A stretch of 15,933 nucleotides of DNA, taken from IMG/VR virus record IMGVR_UViG_2667527666_000007; one strand, given 5' to 3'. Position 1 is the first letter of the stretch. The number at the start of each line of letters is the position of its first letter. This DNA is from a virus (lineage: Duplodnaviria; Heunggongvirae; Uroviricota; Caudoviricetes). The position numbers were made by a program. Of this stretch, positions 1 through 6,000 are shown piece by piece.

Positions 1-3000
1 ATGAGCAGAGCACTTAACAAACTGAGCGATACACAGCTGAGGAAAATCAACGGCACACCTGCCCAAAAAACAGCCTTTCTTAATGACGGTGGAAACCTGA
101 GCGTCAGGCATTCAACCAGTGGCCTTTTAACCTGGTATTTCACTTACAGGGCCGGAACGGGAAGGGGGGCACCACCGGAACGCATTAAGCTGGGAAATTA
201 TCCTGATCTGAGCCTGAAATCAGCCAGGGAAAAAGCCGCCCAGTGTCGCGCATGGCTGGCAGAGGGGAAAAATCCACGTCATGAGCTTAATTACACCGTA
301 CAGGAAGCGTTAAAGCCGGTAACGGTTGGCGATGCGCTCACCTACTGGCTTGAGTCGTACGCAAAGGAAAACCGCGTGGATTATGCCGCCCTGAAAAAGC
401 GCCTTAATAATCACGTAATACAGCACATTGGTGCTATGCCGCTGGATAAATGCGAGCTACGGCACTGGCTGGCCTGTTTTGACCAGGTGGCAAAGCGAAC
501 GCCTGTTACTGCCGGATTCTTGCTACAGACGTGCAAACAGGCGCTTAAGTTCTGCCGGAGGCGGCGCTATGCAATCAGCAACGTTCTTGATGATATGAGT
601 GTGGCGGACGTTGGGAAAAAACCGGATATAAGCGAGCGTGTCTTAAGCACCAAAGAACTGGGCGAATTATTGCAGGCACTGGACAAAAAAATATTCTCCC
701 CCTATTACATCGCGTTAATCCGCCTCCTGATTGTGTTCGGATGCCGGACGGTAGAACTGAGGTTATCGGAGATCAGCGAGTGGGATTTTACCGAAATGCT
801 CTGGACCGTGCCGAAAGAACACAGCAAAACGAAGGTGGCAATATTCCGGCCCATACCGGAAGCAATACTGCCGTTCGTCACGCAGCTGGTGGAGCAGAAC
901 AGGCACACGGGCTTATTGCTGGGGGAAGTGAAACAGGAAACAAGCGTGTCGCAGTACGGCAGATTAGCGCACAGGAGGCTAAATCACCCTCACTGGTCAC
1001 TACATGACATCCGGCGCACCTTTACAACGATGCTGAGCGATTTAGGCGTGGATCCTCACGTCGTGGAGCAGCTTACAGGCCACCAGATGCCAGGAATGCA
1101 GCGAGTTTATAATCATTCCCGTTATCTGGATGCTAAACGCAATGCGCTGGATATGTGGATGGAGCGGTTAGGGATACTGGCGGGAACACATGAAAACGTA
1201 ACCGCACTACCAGCAGCCAGAAGAAAATAATTTTTTTCGTGTTTTTTCAGTATGCGCATACTGGATAAGCACACAGATACAACGGCGAACAATGTGAAAC
1301 AACGTGGAACAACCACGAACAAGAGGCGAAAAAGTACACAGGTTTATAAGTGACTGATTTTATTTGTGTGACTGTTTTTTTATACATTAGCGAATAACGC
1401 TTTAACGCGTGAGAAAAAAGGCATGAAACAATATTTTATGCCTTTGTATTAACATGAATTTAAAAGATTTTATTCTTACTGTTTCATTTTCTGTAAATCA
1501 TACATCCTCAATATTTGCCATTCATCACTCTAGCGGGAACAATACGACACAATAAGACACCTGATGACTCTTTAAGAAACGAAAGGGGGGCAATAGTGTT
1601 AAGCACTGATCGGTTTATACGTGAAAAAGAATGCGAAAAACTAACCGGCCTTAGCCGTACGTGTCGCTACCGCCTGGAAAAGGCCGGACAATTCCCATCA
1701 CGTCGTAAACTTGGCGGTCGTTCCGTTGGCTGGTCTTTATCCGAGGTTCTGGCCTGGAAGGATAGCTGCAAGGCAGTTCATTAATCACGCTGGCGGTACG
1801 CAGCCGCCACACATCAATCATCTGAACACAGAGCTATAACCATGAAGATTGAATATACGCCAGAACGTAGGCGGGGATTCGTTCGCCCTGGTGAAACTGA
1901 AAAACAACAAAATTGGGGTTTTTCAGGCATAAAAAAAGCGGCCCCGAAATGGAGCCGCCTTTCTGAACAGATAACCCGCTGCGCCGTTTGTGTGTGTGAT
2001 CCCAAACATAAGAACGGCAATGATAGTCGCTATCAGTCTGGTTCAGTTCGTTGCCATACCTGCAATGAGCGCTTTTCCCTGTATTCTTTAAGGAATTGCT
2101 CAAGGGCAAAAGCACATGGCGCGAATCTTTCTGATTCATGCTCTATCTTTCTGCGCCGTCTTTTCCGTGCCGGTGATAATGTTTTGGTCAATTCTTTATC
2201 GGTCATTGTGTTGTCCTGCATAGCAATGCGCCGTAATACCTCACACCACGGCGCTGATAGTTTTTATCCTTTGGGTTCTATGCCGCGTTGCTGTAATTCT
2301 TTGCGGAGAACGCGTTTAATCCAAGTGGCTAAAGATGTGTCGCCATCGGCCTTAGCTGCTTCTTCTAGCTGCGCTCTGAAGTCTTCCGGTAATCGCATTT
2401 GGTATGGAGGCGAACGTTTTTCTAATGGTGTTGACATGGTAATTACCCTTCATTACTATACCTACATGGTAATTACCATTGTACTTGCCATTACACAAAA
2501 ATCAACGCCCCGCAGTGCTGGGAACACATACGGGGCGTCTAACCAACAACGTAAACTAGGAGCCGTTATGGTTGCCGTAAATCATATACCACACCTTGTA
2601 CACACACAAACGGCCTTTGTGTGGCGTTTTCTGGCACTGAGTGCCGGAGAATCTCAAATCATCCACGTAACCGCCTGGACGGAACGCGAAGCGCGTAGCC
2701 GTTGCCCGTCCGGTTGTGTTGCTGTATTCGCCGCCCGTATTCGTCAGGGGGTGTGCCATGCCTGACATGACCAATTACCAGTACCTGATTAATCAGCATT
2801 TTAACTGTGAGCATGATATTGCTAAAAAGGTTTATTCCGCTGCGGATGGGGCTACTGACAATATATCAATGGCTGTTTCGTCAATTGGTAGCCTGATGTG
2901 GTATGCGTCAGAAAATAAGGAATATGACGAAAAGGCCATGCGCATTGATATGGGTAATATCGGTTTGTTACTGGCAATGCTTGGACAGTTTAATATTTCG

Positions 3001-6000
3001 TTACGGTGCACCATTGAAAATGCCACAGATGCATTAAATGCCATAAAGAAAGCGAATACTGATTCAAATCGGGGATAAATAATCATGAGAACATATTTAT
3101 CTGGCTTGACTGCCAGCGGTTATGCACACCCAAAAATTATCCCCGGCGCTATTTATCTGGATAAGAACGGTAACAGAGTAACGGTAAAAGAACTGATGTT
3201 TGACCGTGTGTATTTTATTCGTGATGGCTATTCATTTCATAGTTCGCTGAACGTGGAGATCTTTATTAGCAGATTCAGGCGGGAAATCCCGCCTTCCAGA
3301 AATAACCATGTGCCATGTATGGATGTTGATAAAAAACTACAGGAACTGAAAAACATGATTGCCGCGTGGAGAGAGCAGAAATGAAAAAAGCGCCAAATTT
3401 AAAACACCAGCCACGTGACAAAATGACGGAAGTCATCATTTTTGCGGGTAGTGATGCGTGGGCACATGCGAAGCAGTGGCAGGAACAGGACGGGCGACTG
3501 GCTGGCGATAACGTGCCACCTGTCTGGCTTGGAGAGCAACAACTTGCCGAACTGGACAACCTGCAAATCGTACCGGACGGACGCTATCGCGTGCGTCTCT
3601 ATCAGGCGGGGTTATTGCGTTCGGGGCTTGTTAATACCATCGGGCAGAAACTGGCAGCGGCAGGTGTCAGGGATGCTGATTATTACCCTGAAGGAATGCA
3701 CAGCCAGAAACGGGAGAACTGGCGCGAATATCTGGAACGTGAACGGGCAGAGCAGGCGGAAAAGAAAAAGGTAGTTGAACTGCCTGTAAAGAAAAAAGAG
3801 CGGGTAAAAGACGATAACGCTTCATCACTGGCGCTTAACCAGATGGGAGCAAGTCAACGCGGCGAAGTTCTCCTGGCACATTATGGCGGTGAACTGGCGA
3901 TTCATGCTGACTCTGACACTGTTCACTATTACAACGGCGTTGTATGGGAGCCAGTACAGGATAAAGAATTACAGCGAGCTATGGCACAGATTTTCATTGA
4001 TGCGGAGATCAGCTATTCGCAGAACGCCATTAAATCGGCGGTCGATACCATGAAGTTAAGTTTGCCTGTAATGGGGAATACAGCCCGTAACCTGATTGGA
4101 TTCAGTAACGGTGTTTTTGATACCCGGACAGGCGATTTTCGGGAGCATAACAAAAACGACTGGTTGTTAATTGCCAGTGAATTACCTTTCAGCCCACCAG
4201 CAGAGGGGGAAACGCTGGCAACACATGCGCCGAATTTCTGGAAGTGGTTACGCCGTTCGGTGGCTGAGAATGACCGCAAGGCGGATCGCGTACTGGCTGC
4301 ATTATTCATGGTGCTGGCGAACCGGTACGACTGGCAGTTATTCATTGAGGTAACAGGTCCAGGGGGAAGTGGTAAAAGCGTGATGGCGGAGATTTGCACC
4401 ATGCTGGCGGGTAAGGCCAACACGGTATCGGCAAGCATGAAGGCGCTGGAAGATGCCAGGGAACGCGCGTTAGTGGTTGGCTTTTCGCTGATTATCATGC
4501 CGGATATGACCCGTTACGCTGGTGATGGCGCAGGAATTAAGGCCATTACAGGCGGTGACAAGGTGGCAATCGACCCGAAGCATAAAGCGCCATACTCAAC
4601 GCGTATTCCGGCGGTTGTGCTGGCGGTTAACAACAGCGCCATGTCATTCAGTGACCGCAGCGGGGGGATTTCACGTCGTCGGGTGATATTCAATTTTTCG
4701 GAGGTTGTACCGGAAAACGAACGCGACCCCATGCTGGCAGAAAAAATAGAAGGAGAGCTGGCGGTTGTGATTCGCCACCTGCTTACTCGTTTTTCTGACC
4801 AGGACGAAGCTAAACGCCTGCTGTATGAGCAGCAGAAATCAGAAGAAGCTCTGGTGATAAAACGCGAGGGCGATTCGCTGGTGGACTTCTGCGGCTATCT
4901 CATGTCGTCGGTAATGTGTGATGGTCTGTTAGTGGGTAATGCCGAAATTATTCCGTTCAGTCCGCGCAGGTATCTTTATCACGCCTATCTGGCATATATG
5001 AGGGCACACGGATTCGGTAAACCTGTAACACTGACGCGCTTCGGTAAAGATATGCCGGGGGCAATGGCGGAATATGGCAGGGAGTATATGAAACGGAAAA
5101 CGAAGCACGGTTTGCGTTCAAACGTGACACTGACGGAGGAATCAGAAGACTGGATGCCATCATGTGTATCGGTCACTAATGACGATAGCAAAAATTAAAC
5201 TTATGGAATAACTGTTCACCACTGTTCACCCTGTCATAAATATCTTTTGTATCAGTATGTTATAGGGTGAACAGTTATTTATGAACTGTTCACCAAACTA
5301 TTCACTGTTCACCTTTTTGATTGTTTATTGAGCTTCAAGGGTGAACAGTGGTGAACAGTTGGTGAATAGTTTTTGTGAAACTGTTCACCCCTTAACATTA
5401 TGAATTAAAAGATAAAATATCAAAAGGTGAACAGGTGAAGGGTTAAAACGCAAAAATTTTAATTTACTGCTGTGAGATAAAGCCTATGACAGCGAAGCAC
5501 ACAAAAAAATCACAATCGCACGCCCTTGATTTGACGGAACACTGGTTAAGGGTGTCGATAAAAATCATCGACCGCAACGCCGGGGAAGGATATGCGAAAG
5601 CACATCCCGAACTGATTAGCTCATTCATGACAACGGCAGCTGCAAACTTTGCCACGCTGACAGAACGGGAGATCGCAGAAGCAGAACAGGTAACAACCAT
5701 CAACGTTAAAACCGGAGAGGTGGAATCATGACAGCACAGATAGCGGCTTACGGGCGGCTGGTGGACGACCCGCAGGTAAAACAGACCAGTAAGGGCACAC
5801 CGATGACGCTGGCGCGTATGGCGGTATCGTTGCCATGTAGTCAGGCGCAGGATGGGCAGGCGACGTTATGGCTATCGGTCATCGCATTTGGTAAGCAGGC
5901 CGACTTCCTGGCTAAACATCAAAAAGGCGACGTTGCCAGCGTATCCGGCACGATGCAGGTCAGCCAGTGGACCGGACAGAACGGGGAAACGCGGCAGGGT

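What the first reader, a model, noticed from the sequence alone, without database searches (positions are those of the whole stretch)
2505..3384. AT-richer accessory block upstream of the primase: Icd-like gene with a 5' hairpin plus two unknown proteins
The three genes at 2568-3384 are visibly more AT-rich than the replication and packaging modules and have no recognisable motifs apart from the Icd-like candidate. An 8-bp GC stem-loop (ACGCCCCG-N18-CGGGGCGT, 2505-2538) sits in the leader of the first gene. In satellites the space between regulators and the primase commonly holds helper-interference or host-manipulation genes, so these are the best candidates for uncharacterised function in the window.
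Basis: partly seen in the sequence, partly recalled or inferred. Interest (0 to 1): 0.45.

Follow-up and report, generated by a model that had tools for sequence, protein, structure and literature searches.

The report
Antisense RNA guarding a satellite's icd operon
The "leader hairpin" is most likely the terminator of a conserved, undescribed small antisense RNA that covers the start of an Icd-like gene heading the early operon of an E. coli phage satellite. The two "unknown" genes are a narrow-family helical protein and a distant relative of the known regulator RgdR.

Summary
The window is an E. coli capsid-forming PICI (a phage satellite) inserted in tqsA. The region 2505-3384 is the start of its early operon.

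**Observation: partly confirmed.**
- The hairpin and the three ORFs are at the stated coordinates.
- Only two of the three genes are AT-rich: orf106 39.9% and DUF4222 41.7% GC. The Icd-like gene is 55.6%, against 50.6% for the window.
- A hairpin like this is expected about once per window by chance.

**What comparative data show.**
- The stem-loop is conserved in position across E. coli, Shigella and Morganella, with 12 of 20 pairs showing compensatory changes.
- The structure belongs to the minus strand: 97% versus 80% of cells form standard pairs, and there are 94 G·U pairs versus 1.
- On the minus strand it is followed by a T-tract.
- A -10 hexamer sits at a fixed 35-38 nt from the structure.

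This predicts an antisense RNA of about 80 nt over the Icd-like ribosome-binding site and start codon. It is absent from Rfam and sits where other Icd-like loci carry the C4 (P1 c4 / P4 CI-type) immunity RNA.

**The genes.**
- The Icd-like ORF is a true P1 Icd homologue.
- The 99-aa ORF is a DUF4222/RgdR-family gene that abuts the replication gene in nearly all related elements.
- The 106-aa ORF is a helical hairpin of a very small family.

No transcript has been observed. The RNA is inferred from sequence alone.

The parts
2033..2221 (-). 62-aa small protein, second gene of the leftward regulatory pair
   Evidence: The ORF is listed. It matches phrog_21027 (unknown function) at 1.6e-15. It is conserved beside the RHH gene in related loci.
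2264..2437 (-). 57-aa ribbon-helix-helix (Arc / YlcI-YnfO-like) protein, the candidate repressor of the early operon
   Evidence: It matches phrog_228 (Arc-like repressor) at 1.5e-6. The NF041551 YlcI/YnfO match is 18.7 bits, below the cut-off. PGAP names its homologues YlcI/YnfO family. The repressor role is inferred.
2431..2459 (+). Predicted sigma-70 promoter of the early operon: TTGACA, 17 nt, TACTAT
   Evidence: Best promoter-like site in 1200-3600, matching 10 of 12 positions. Coordinates were checked. It is a consensus match only.
2434..2480 (.). Two copies of ACATGGTAATTACC, 30 bp apart (2434-2450 and 2464-2480). Palindromic cores GGTAATTACC lie at 2438-2447 and 2468-2477. These are the presumed operators.
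   Evidence: Direct repeat D1 and inverted repeat I5; positions. They overlap the -35 and the start region of the rightward promoter, and the -10 and 5' UTR of the leftward one. Binding by the RHH protein is inferred.
2478..2505 (-). Predicted leftward promoter of the RHH gene: TTGATT, 16 nt, TACAAT. Its -35 lies within the T-tract of the antisense terminator.
   Evidence: 9 of 12 positions; positions.
2494..2574 (-). Predicted cis-antisense RNA of about 81 nt. It has a 5' part complementary to the icd-like start codon and Shine-Dalgarno sequence, the invariant UGGUUAGA, a terminator stem-loop and a U-tract.
   Evidence: Model R1 matches 2484-2579 (-) at 96.6 bits. The consensus structure has 20 pairs, 12 of them with compensatory changes. 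Strand asymmetry is shown. MFE is -33.6 kcal/mol, z = -4.2, against -23.6 for the sense strand. Both ends are predicted, not mapped.
2505..2538 (-). The hairpin of the finding, read as the intrinsic-terminator stem-loop of the antisense RNA. On the - strand it extends to 9 + 5 pairs with a 3-nt loop and is followed by UUGAUUUUUGUG.
2538..2545 (-). Invariant TGGTTAGA (TCTAACCA on the + strand) immediately 5' of the terminator
   Evidence: Invariant columns of alignment A3. Used as the anchor.
2581..2609 (-). Predicted promoter of the antisense RNA inside codons 5-14 of icd-like: -35 TTGTGT (2609-2604), 17 nt, -10 TATGAT (2586-2581)
   Evidence: A TANNNT hexamer lies 35-38 nt from the anchor in every locus that carries the element. 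The distance from the ATG to the anchor varies from 22 to 29 nt. Positions.
2568..2765 (+). Icd-like gene (65 aa), first cistron of the early operon; SD AGGAG at 2558-2562
   Evidence: NF033153 at 64.7 bits against a cut-off of 25. 41% identity over 46 aa to P1 Icd, pairwise E 2e-7. pN/pS 0.34.
2758..3078 (+). orf106: a predicted two-helix hairpin protein from a very small family. It occupies the variable slot, and its start overlaps the icd-like stop.
   Evidence: phrog_15327 at 5.8e-70, with no Pfam, NCBIfam or PADLOC match. Only 16 relatives were found among 1.84 billion representatives. AlphaFold2 pLDDT 78, helices 19-51 and 58-104. pN/pS 0.39.
3085..3384 (+). DUF4222 / RgdR-family gene (99 aa); its stop overlaps the primase start (ATGA)
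   Evidence: PF13973 at 61.1 bits. 34% identity to RgdR of the O157 island, E 6e-16. It abuts the replication gene in almost all related loci. pN/pS 0.45.
3381..5198 (+). Primase/helicase (D5_N, DUF5906, Pox_D5; P4-family primase C-terminal domain), the downstream cistron of the same operon

Best explanation
Region 2430-3384 is the control region and first three cistrons of the early (replication) operon of an E. coli capsid-forming PICI.

**Layout.** A rightward sigma-70 promoter (2431-2459) is overlapped by two palindromic operators for the divergently encoded ribbon-helix-helix protein. The first cistron encodes a homologue of phage P1 Icd. It is followed, with overlapping or closely spaced stops and starts, by orf106, a DUF4222/RgdR-family gene and the primase.

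**The hairpin.** The GC hairpin at 2505-2538 is the Rho-independent terminator of an RNA of about 80 nt made from the opposite strand. Its promoter lies inside codons 5-14 of the Icd-like gene. The RNA is fully complementary to the Icd-like start codon, its Shine-Dalgarno sequence and the rest of the leader.

**Proposed mechanism.**
- In the quiescent island, this antisense RNA pairs with leaky early transcripts.
- Pairing blocks translation of the Icd-like cistron.
- Through translational coupling and polarity, expression of orf106, DUF4222 and the primase is also kept down.
- When the helper phage switches on AlpA and the early promoter fires, sense transcripts outnumber the antisense RNA and the operon is expressed.

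**Relation to known systems.** This is the logic of P1 c4-icd-ant and of P4 CI immunity, carried out by an unrelated, cis-encoded RNA.

**Shown:** the conserved minus-strand structure with covariation, the T-tract, the fixed-distance -10 hexamer, the homologies and the gene overlaps.

**Inferred:** that the RNA is made, that it represses, that the RHH protein binds the palindromes, and what each protein does.
For: **Identity of the element**
- 99.5% identity to an island in tqsA of E. coli SHP24. That island carries int, alpA, a primase, capsid, protease, portal, connector, HNH and terminase genes.
- This gene set matches the published description of cf-PICIs (10.1101/2022.09.08.507074).

**The structure is real and on the minus strand**
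- Hairpins sit about 30 nt upstream of the icd-like ATG in E. coli, Shigella and Morganella loci, with different stem sequences.
- In 27 distinct sequences, 20 pairs are predicted. 12 have compensatory changes and 97.2% of cells are paired, against 87.3% in shuffles (0 of 500 reach the observed value) and 36-50% when partners are slid.
- The same columns read on the + strand give 79.8% paired. There are 94 G.U cells on the - strand against 1 on the + strand.
- Independent consensus folds give -23.4 kcal/mol on the minus strand and -5.1 on the plus strand. All 27 sequences fold better on the minus strand.
- On the - strand the stem is followed by TTGaTTTTTGTG in most classes.

**A fixed-length transcription unit**
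- A TANNNT hexamer lies 35-38 nt 5' of the invariant TGGTYAnA in every locus with the element. This includes classes with unrelated N-terminal protein sequences.
- The ATG-to-anchor distance varies from 22 to 29 nt, so the hexamer tracks the RNA structure and not the start codon.
- Two classes carry an extended -10 (TGn).

**Specificity**
- Model R1 gives one hit in the window and 92 hits in 87 related loci. All are antisense to icd-like. There is no hit in P1.

**Same position as a known regulator**
- P1 has C4 RNA directly upstream of icd, as does an E. albertii Icd-like locus, which also has isrK. This window has no Rfam match at all.
- PMC10111431 reports that C4 and isrK, relatives of P4 CI and seqA, hit several Gram-negative PICIs.

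**Operon geometry like P1**
- In P1, icd overlaps ant1. Here icd-like overlaps orf106, and DUF4222 overlaps the primase.
Against: - No transcript data were available. The RNA, its 5' end and its effect are all predictions.
- The simple promoter scan did not list the antisense promoter. Its -35, TTGTGT, matches only 3 of 6 positions.
- The -10 lies in the conserved His-Thr/Ile codons, so its conservation may be partly protein-driven.
- The T-tract also serves as the -35 of the predicted RHH promoter, so it may be conserved for that reason.
- One class (L008, second copy) has a weak T-tract.
- The structure used for the counts was derived from these same sequences, which inflates the percentage paired.
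- The loci are related, so shuffles overstate significance, as the tool's own caveat says.
- Published work explains induction of E. coli PICIs through AlpA alone (PMC6092414).
Confidence: 0.6

Rival explanations
1. The hairpin acts in the sense mRNA. It would be a 5'-leader stem-loop that stabilises the early transcript, pauses or attenuates transcription, or binds a protein.
For: It lies between the predicted early promoter (2431-2459) and the icd-like ATG, so it is transcribed in the leader. An 8-bp G+C stem does form on the + strand.
Against: - On the + strand the leader fold is not better than shuffles (z = -1.04). The minus strand gives z = -2.43.
- Across 27 sequences the + strand has many C.A mismatches: 79.8% of cells are paired against 97.2% on the minus strand, with 1 G.U cell against 94.
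- The + strand consensus fold is only -5.1 kcal/mol.
- No U-tract follows the stem on the + strand.
Confidence: 0.12
2. The minus-strand stem-loop with its T-tract is a terminator or insulator, but not part of a discrete regulatory RNA. It would stop stray leftward transcription from entering the RHH promoter, or end a leftward operon. The apparent -10 hexamer would be a by-product of conserved codons.
For: - In loci with tandem regulator modules, one copy of the element lies just 3' of a leftward YlcI-hyp gene pair (L008).
- The T-tract overlaps the RHH -35.
- The -10 overlaps the conserved His codon.
Against: - All genes to the right run rightwards, so there is no known leftward transcription to stop.
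- The sequence 5' of the terminator is conserved as RNA structure. This includes invariant UGGUUAGA and a covarying second helix that often holds the anti-Shine-Dalgarno sequence.
- The -10 keeps a fixed distance to the structure and not to the ATG. It is present in classes with unrelated N-termini, namely L005, L006 and L009.
Confidence: 0.15
3. The inverted repeat is a DNA-level site, either a protein operator (for example for AlpA) or a cruciform, and not an RNA element.
For: It lies in a regulatory intergenic region next to other palindromes. AlpA-dependent activation of the early genes is documented, but the binding site is not reported in the papers read (PMC6092414).
Against: - The stem sequences differ completely between classes while pairing is kept (ACGCCCCG, AAGCCCCG, ATGCCCGAT, GAGGCTG).
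- The departures from perfect symmetry are all of the G.T type on one strand. That pattern has meaning for RNA but not for a duplex-DNA operator.
Confidence: 0.05
4. The AT-rich pair orf106 + DUF4222 is recently acquired accessory cargo that interferes with the helper phage or manipulates the host.
For: - GC is about 10 points below the rest of the island.
- The pair moves as a block with mosaic boundaries.
- RgdR, a family member, changes type III secretion and motility in EHEC (PMC3378721).
- An Icd-like protein in a six-gene operon with a primase was reported as the likely cell-death effector in ECOR61 (10.1101/2023.04.06.535777).
Against: - A DUF4222 gene is present and fused to the replication gene's start in nearly every related island, so it behaves as core and not as cargo (PMC6092414).
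- No PADLOC hit.
- No homologue of orf106 or of this DUF4222 protein in 50,697 phage records.
- The window protein has PGA where RgdR has the RGD motif.
- EcCIEDL933 does not block its helper phages (10.1101/2022.09.08.507074).
Confidence: 0.25

Closest known systems
Phage P1 immI: c4 antisense RNA - icd - ant (Rfam C4, RF01695)
   Same: - A small RNA controls access to the ribosome-binding site of an Icd-family first cistron.
- That cistron's stop overlaps the start of the next gene, so the RNA gates the whole operon (annotation).
- The Icd-like protein here is homologous to P1 Icd.
- The RNA lies in the same place, between the promoter and icd.
   Different: - c4 is made from the same strand, upstream of icd. 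It is processed out of the leader and pairs through two short loops (a', b').
- The RNA proposed here is made from the opposite strand, has its own promoter inside icd-like, and is fully complementary to its target.
- There is no sequence or structure match to the C4 model on either strand, even at E up to 10.
- The downstream gene is not an antirepressor.
Satellite P4 immunity: CI RNA with seqA/seqC (detected by Rfam C4 and isrK), also reported in several Gram-negative PICIs
   Same: It is an RNA-based immunity layer at the head of a satellite's early operon, which ends in a primase. An Icd-like locus in E. albertii carries isrK + C4 exactly where this window carries the new element (PMC10111431).
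   Different: P4 CI acts by causing premature termination of same-strand transcripts. No isrK or C4 match exists in this window. The element here has the architecture of a cis-antisense gene.
Cis-antisense RNAs over a 5' end, such as SymR/symE and phage P22 sar/ant (from my own knowledge, not tested here)
   Same: A short RNA of about 70-80 nt is transcribed opposite the ribosome-binding site and start codon. Its promoter lies within or next to the first codons of the target, and it ends in an intrinsic terminator. P22 immI also combines this with ribbon-helix-helix repressors (Arc, Mnt).
   Different: No sequence relationship was found. Toxicity of this Icd-like protein has not been tested. 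The target heads a replication operon and not a stand-alone toxin or antirepressor gene.
RgdR (ECs1581) of EHEC O157:H7 island OI-51 / CP-933C = EcCIEDL933
   Same: - Same Pfam family (DUF4222) and the same length (99 aa).
- Same position, immediately before and overlapping the replication gene of a cf-PICI.
- The O157 island shares 98.8% DNA identity with window 2200-2760 and carries the same antisense element.
   Different: - Only 34% amino-acid identity.
- Residues 20-22 are PGA instead of RGD. Position 20 matters for RgdR activity (PMC3378721).
- The neighbouring replication gene is a D5-type primase here and a RepA-type helicase in O157.

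Membership tests
Icd family (P1 Icd; NCBIfam NF033153 phage_ICD_like) | Sequence match to the family model above its curated cut-off | tested here: met
   64.7 bits against a cut-off of 25, residues 17-60. P1 Icd itself scores 52.6 bits.
Icd family (P1 Icd; NCBIfam NF033153 phage_ICD_like) | Direct similarity to the founding member, P1 Icd | tested here: met
   41% identity over 46 aa, pairwise E 2e-7. This is too weak to appear in a tblastn search of the whole phage collection at 1e-3.
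Icd family (P1 Icd; NCBIfam NF033153 phage_ICD_like) | Short first cistron whose stop overlaps the start of the next gene, with an RNA regulator at its ribosome-binding site | tested here: met
   The overlap ATGCCTGA is at 2758-2765. In P1, icd overlaps ant1 and the C4 target sites lie before icd. The RNA here is of a different kind and is predicted only.
Icd family (P1 Icd; NCBIfam NF033153 phage_ICD_like) | Reversible inhibition of host cell division | not testable with these tools
   This needs a filamentation assay.
C4 / CI-type immunity RNA (Rfam RF01695, with isrK RF01394 or c4-a1b1 RF03163) | Match to the covariance model on the sense strand upstream of icd | tested here: not met
   No Rfam family reaches its gathering score in the window. 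Nothing C4-like appears at E up to 10 in 2200-3500. The positive controls, P1 and E. albertii, were found.
Cis-encoded antisense RNA gene | Conserved secondary structure supported by compensatory changes on the antisense strand | tested here: met
   12 of 20 pairs have changes on both sides. 97.2% of cells are paired on the - strand against 79.8% on the + strand. There are 94 G.U cells against 1.
Cis-encoded antisense RNA gene | Intrinsic terminator (G+C stem followed by a U-tract) on the antisense strand | tested here: met
   A stem of 9 + 5 pairs followed by UUGAUUUUUGUG. The T-tract is conserved in most classes. The 18-nt outer loop exceeded the loop limit of the simple scan, so one search did not list it.
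Cis-encoded antisense RNA gene | Own promoter at a fixed distance from the structure | tested here: inconclusive
   A TANNNT hexamer lies 35-38 nt from the anchor in all classes, independent of the ATG position. The -35 is weak, and the hexamer overlaps conserved codons.
Cis-encoded antisense RNA gene | A detectable transcript and a regulatory effect on the target | not testable with these tools
   No expression data were held. Two supplement files of the EHEC Hfq-crosslinking study gave no entry for Sp7 or ECs1576-1579.
DUF4222 / RgdR family | Match to Pfam PF13973 above the gathering score | tested here: met
   61.1 bits against a cut-off of 27, residues 16-67.
DUF4222 / RgdR family | Position immediately upstream of the island's replication gene | tested here: met
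   the end of DUF4222 coincides with the start of the pri/rep gene in nearly all loci. Searches agree.
DUF4222 / RgdR family | RGD motif at residues 20-22, linked to activation of type III secretion | tested here: not met
   The window protein has P20-G21-A22. PMC3378721 shows that residue 20 affects activity.
DUF4222 / RgdR family | DNA binding, and effects on LEE1 expression and motility | not testable with these tools
   Experimental. The AlphaFold2 model was too poor to use (pLDDT 55.6).
Capsid-forming PICI (cf-PICI) | int, alpA and a replication gene, plus its own capsid, protease, portal, connector, HNH and terminase genes, with no tail or lysis genes, in about 15 kb | tested here: met
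   Annotation of the 99.5%-identical island in SHP24. Domain hits for int, alpA and the primase. The definition is from 10.1101/2022.09.08.507074.
Known anti-phage defence systems (PADLOC) | Match of any of the block's proteins to a defence-system model | tested here: not met
   No hit at E up to 0.01 for six proteins.

The most novel reading that the evidence does not exclude
E. coli-type PICIs (and related islands in Morganella) carry a previously undescribed family of cis-antisense 'immunity' RNAs of about 80 nt.

- Together with a divergent ribbon-helix-helix repressor, these RNAs would form the missing repression layer of Gram-negative PICIs.
- The RNA would lock translation of a potentially toxic Icd-like first cistron, and through coupling also the replication operon. 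That is a type-I-toxin-antitoxin-like gate that replaces the P1/P4 C4/CI system.
- The variable upper stem and loop of the terminator would set specificity classes, letting several islands coexist in one cell.
Probability: 0.35. Interest if true: 0.7.

Novelty: new variant of a known kind. Interest (0 to 1): 0.55.

Why it matters
**An open question in the field.** For Gram-negative PICIs the published view is that induction runs through the activator AlpA. [quoted passage not shown]

**What the element would add.**
- A conserved antisense RNA over the first cistron of the early operon, next to an operator-flanked ribbon-helix-helix gene, would supply a concrete and testable repression mechanism.
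- It would show that Icd-family genes are guarded by RNA in at least two unrelated ways: C4/CI-type and this cis-antisense type.
- It would give a cheap marker for these islands. The leader and gene-start segment that holds the element matched about 1186 of 5426 complete E. coli genomes.

**Annotation errors it flags.**
- Pipelines call long 'Icd-like' or 'ash family' ORFs across this RNA and across the minus-strand regulators.
- Pipelines leave the RgdR-family gene as a bare DUF.

**The protein-coding part of the finding is mostly ordinary.** It consists of one known family, one named DUF with a studied member, and one helical protein that is close to an orphan.

Tried and rejected
- **Rfam.** Searched at gathering score on the whole window, and at E up to 10 on 2200-3500. 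Only two chance-level matches appeared (Bacillus-plasmid RNA at E 0.14, CRISPR-DR32 at E 9).
- **Fold search of the orf106 model against the PDB.** It returned only generic two-helix hairpins (EsxB, AcrA hairpin, coiled coils). The best E was 0.78, so it is uninformative.
- **Profile searches of the PDB.** Searches with the orf106, DUF4222 and Icd-like alignments found nothing credible.
- **Homology between orf106 and other slot proteins.** I tested whether orf106 is related to the other small helical proteins that fill the same slot in related islands. hhalign probability was below 1%, so this was rejected.
- **DUF4222 structure.** pLDDT was 55.6, so no fold search was run on the model.
- **Phage collection (tblastn).** There was one hit for Icd-like, in a 16.5-kb 'induced prophage' record. 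There were none for orf106 or DUF4222.
- **Genome-contig scan with the Icd-like alignment.** It gave only 4 loci. The viral-contig scan supplied the diversity instead.
- **Literature.**
  - No paper was found that describes an antisense RNA at this position.
  - Esr41 lies in OI-43, not OI-51.
  - The Pas sRNA paper does not mention Icd-like genes, alpA, PICIs or antisense RNAs.
  - Supplements of the EHEC Hfq study have no Sp7 entry.
- **The + strand terminator-like hairpin inside icd-like (2603-2623).** I considered it as an attenuator. It exists only in the HTQTAFVW class, so it is not a general feature.

Full report
**1. What the window is.**
- Window 2200-3500 is 99.5% identical to an island inserted in tqsA (ydgG) of E. 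coli SHP24.
- That island carries a tyrosine integrase, an AlpA-type regulator, a primase, SSB and PerC. It also has its own capsid, prohead protease, portal, head-closure and connector proteins, HNH, and small and large terminase.
- The window's own proteins agree: integrase (Arm-DNA-bind_3 + Phage_integrase), AlpA (PF05930), and a D5_N/DUF5906/Pox_D5 primase.
- This is the gene set of a capsid-forming PICI (10.1101/2022.09.08.507074).
- Window 2200-2760 is 98.8% identical to EHEC O157 strains, in the island known as CP-933C, OI-51 or EcCIEDL933.

**2. Checking the observation.**
- The hairpin and the ORFs are exactly where stated.
- GC content: window 50.6%, Icd-like gene 55.6%, orf106 39.9%, DUF4222 41.7%. 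The stretch 2766-3384 is 40.4% GC, in the lowest 0.7% of equal-sized windows.
- So the AT-rich block is real but covers two genes, not three.
- The hairpin alone is not remarkable. Shuffled windows contain 0.87 such hairpins on average.
- All three ORFs are kept open in relatives, with pN/pS of 0.34-0.45.

**3. The genes.**

*ORF1 (65 aa)*
- It matches NF033153 'Icd-like' at 64.7 bits.
- It aligns with P1 Icd at 41% identity over 46 residues. P1 Icd matches the same model.

*ORF3 (99 aa)*
- It is a DUF4222 protein, 34% identical to RgdR of the O157 island.
- RgdR is a 99-aa protein that activates LEE1/type III secretion, represses motility and binds DNA without evident specificity (PMC3378721).
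- Fillol-Salom et al. note that RgdR is encoded by all E. coli PICIs they analysed (PMC6092414).
- Consistent with that, in about 85 related loci a DUF4222 gene ends exactly where the replication gene starts, whatever the replication allele.
- The window protein has PGA where RgdR has RGD.
- Its structure model is poor (pLDDT 55.6). It shows four short strands and a C-terminal helix.

*ORF2 (106 aa)*
- It matches only phrog_15327.
- It has 16 relatives among 5.8 billion clustered proteins, and 16 among 1.84 billion representatives read exhaustively.
- It is predicted with fair confidence (pLDDT 78) as a two-helix hairpin. There is no significant structural or sequence match in the PDB.

*The variable slot*
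- Between the Icd-like gene and the DUF4222 gene, related islands carry from about 230 to 1350 nt of different small genes in many combinations.
- orf106 is one such filler. It always travels with this particular DUF4222 allele.
- It is not detectably related to the other fillers.
- None of these proteins matches a PADLOC model.

**4. The hairpin is on the other strand.**
- Folding the two strands gave the first hint. The sense leader is no better than shuffles (z = -1.0).
- The antisense strand forms a longer stem of 9 + 5 pairs, followed by UUGAUUUUUGUG (z = -2.4).
- I then collected relatives: four from species genomes, eighty from viral contigs and several from complete E. coli genomes.
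- Every locus except one has a hairpin about 30 nt upstream of the Icd-like ATG, but the stems differ: ACGCCCCG, AAGCCCCG, ATGCCCGAT, GAGGCTG. The upper stems also differ: CAGUG..., ACUG..., AGUG....
- Results for an alignment of 27 distinct sequences:
  - RNAalifold predicts 20 pairs in three helices, 12 of them with compensatory changes.
  - 97.2% of cells are paired, against 87.3% in column shuffles (0 of 500 reach the observed value) and 36-50% when partners are slid by 1-3 columns.
  - On the sense strand only 79.8% of the same cells pair. The alignment holds 94 G.U cells on the antisense strand and 1 on the sense strand.
  - Folded independently, the antisense alignment gives -23.4 kcal/mol and the sense alignment -5.1. 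All 27 sequences fold better as antisense.
- This asymmetry is what selection on an RNA made from the minus strand would produce.

**5. A transcription unit of fixed length.**
- On the minus strand an invariant TGGTTAGA precedes the terminator.
- A TANNNT hexamer lies 35-38 nt upstream of that motif in every locus carrying the element:
  - TATGAT or TATGCT in most;
  - TAGACT in a Morganella locus;
  - TACACT in a divergent E. coli locus;
  - with TGn extended -10 motifs in two classes.
- The distance from the start codon to the motif varies from 22 to 29 nt. The hexamer therefore keeps register with the RNA structure and not with the protein.
- In the window this gives -35 TTGTGT (2609-2604), -10 TATGAT (2586-2581), a start near 2574 and an end near 2494.
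- The resulting RNA is 81 nt, with MFE -33.6 kcal/mol (z = -4.2). It is complementary to the AUG, the AGGAG Shine-Dalgarno sequence and the rest of the leader.
- A covariance model built from the alignment finds one copy in the window (96.6 bits) and 92 copies in 87 loci. All are antisense to Icd-like genes, and there is none in P1.
- Eight loci (L008, L039, L061, L070, L073, L074, L077, L087) have a second copy 750-850 nt upstream. In L008, the only one with annotation, it accompanies a duplicated regulator module.

**6. Comparison with what is known.**
- Rfam 15 has no match in the window.
- The one locus lacking the element is an E. albertii Icd-like gene. It has isrK and C4 RNAs in the same place. 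P1, run as a control, shows C4 and c4-a1b1 before icd.
- C4 and isrK detect relatives of P4's CI RNA and seqA, and are reported in several Gram-negative PICIs (PMC10111431).
- Icd-family first cistrons thus come with one of two unrelated RNA regulators.
- P1's record also shows icd overlapping ant1, as icd-like overlaps orf106 here.
- The geometry here is an antisense promoter inside the first codons, about 80 nt of RNA, and a terminator in the leader. From my own knowledge it resembles SymR/symE and P22 sar/ant. This was not tested.
- I found no paper describing this RNA.

**7. The rest of the control region.**
- The best sigma-70-like site is TTGACA-17-TACTAT at 2431-2459.
- Two copies of ACATGGTAATTACC lie 30 bp apart at 2434-2450 and 2464-2480. 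They overlap that promoter and the predicted leftward promoter of a 57-aa Arc/YlcI-like ribbon-helix-helix gene.
- This looks like a repressor-operator pair. The 2018 PICI paper said a repressor had not been identified in Gram-negative islands (PMC6092414).

**8. Mechanism proposed, and how sure.**
- I put 0.6 on the reading that the hairpin terminates a cis-antisense RNA which represses translation of the Icd-like cistron and, by coupling and polarity, the downstream genes. High early transcription after AlpA induction would overcome this repression.
- The structural and comparative steps are shown. Transcription, repression and all protein functions are inferred.
- Main weaknesses: no expression data, a weak -35, overlap of the -10 with conserved codons, and a T-tract that doubles as the -35 of the neighbouring promoter.

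**9. Verdict.**
- The protein part of the finding is largely ordinary. It is the early operon of a known kind of satellite, with a known Icd-family gene, a named DUF with a studied member, and one small helical protein of unknown role.
- The unexpected part is the hairpin, which points to an uncatalogued antisense RNA family in the place of the C4/CI immunity RNA.
- I rate the finding as a new variant of a known kind, with interest 0.55.

Noticed in passing
window 5192-5444: At least eleven copies of an 11-nt iteron (GGTGAACAGTT and its complement AACTGTTCACC), in two orientations, fill the 33% GC gap after the primase. This is the arrangement described for PICI replication origins (PMC6092414).
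   Followed up: partly
window 2603-2633: A + strand terminator-like hairpin (CACACAAA-CGGCC-TTTGTGTG, then GCGTTTTCTG) lies inside codons 12-22 of the Icd-like gene. Its left arm is the -35 of the predicted antisense promoter. It occurs only in the HTQTAFVW class of Icd-like genes, so it may be a by-product of complementary codons, or a class-specific attenuator.
   Followed up: partly
window 1842-2765 (+ strand ORF); L001 13622-14215; hits H26-H28: A 307-codon open frame runs from 1842 into the Icd-like gene, across the minus-strand regulators and the antisense RNA. PGAP variously calls parts of it a pseudo 'Icd-like protein' or an 'ash family protein', and in some genomes omits the minus-strand RHH gene. 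This is probably an annotation artefact.
   Followed up: partly
L008 2491-2587; also L039, L061, L070, L073, L074, L077 and L087, about 750-850 nt upstream of the main copy: A second full-length copy of the antisense-RNA element. In L008 it lies beside a duplicated regulator module (YlcI-like gene plus small ORF) and has no Icd-like gene of its own. These could be stacked or orphan immunity modules.
   Followed up: partly
L001 14559-15023 (E. coli SHP24, otherwise 99.5% identical to the window): An extra 154-aa gene is inserted between the Icd-like gene and orf106. Its C-terminus matches the Icd-like model at 49.9 bits. [quoted passage not shown] It is absent from the window.
   Followed up: partly
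L004 3247-3435 (E. albertii); L006 409-477 (Morganella morganii): The E. albertii Icd-like locus has isrK and C4 RNAs instead of the antisense element. The Morganella locus has the Rfam int-alpA RNA motif (RF02996), which the window lacks.
   Followed up: no
window 1231-1583: The integrase-alpA intergenic region is the other strongly AT-rich stretch (34% GC) and holds two weak promoter-like sites. The helper phage is reported to activate alpA transcription (PMC6092414).
   Followed up: no
window 3142-3150 (residues 20-22 of the DUF4222 protein): The RGD tripeptide that gave RgdR its name is PGA here. A natural R20C variant from strain ED1a, whose island is in the same chromosomal site (ydgD-ydgG), was inactive on type III secretion (PMC3378721).
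   Followed up: partly
LR881103.1 (Escherichia phage vB_KppS-Ant, 16.5 kb, 'induced prophage'): This is the only record among 50,697 phage genomes with a tblastn match to the Icd-like protein (57% identity). Its size suggests a satellite deposited as a phage.
   Followed up: no
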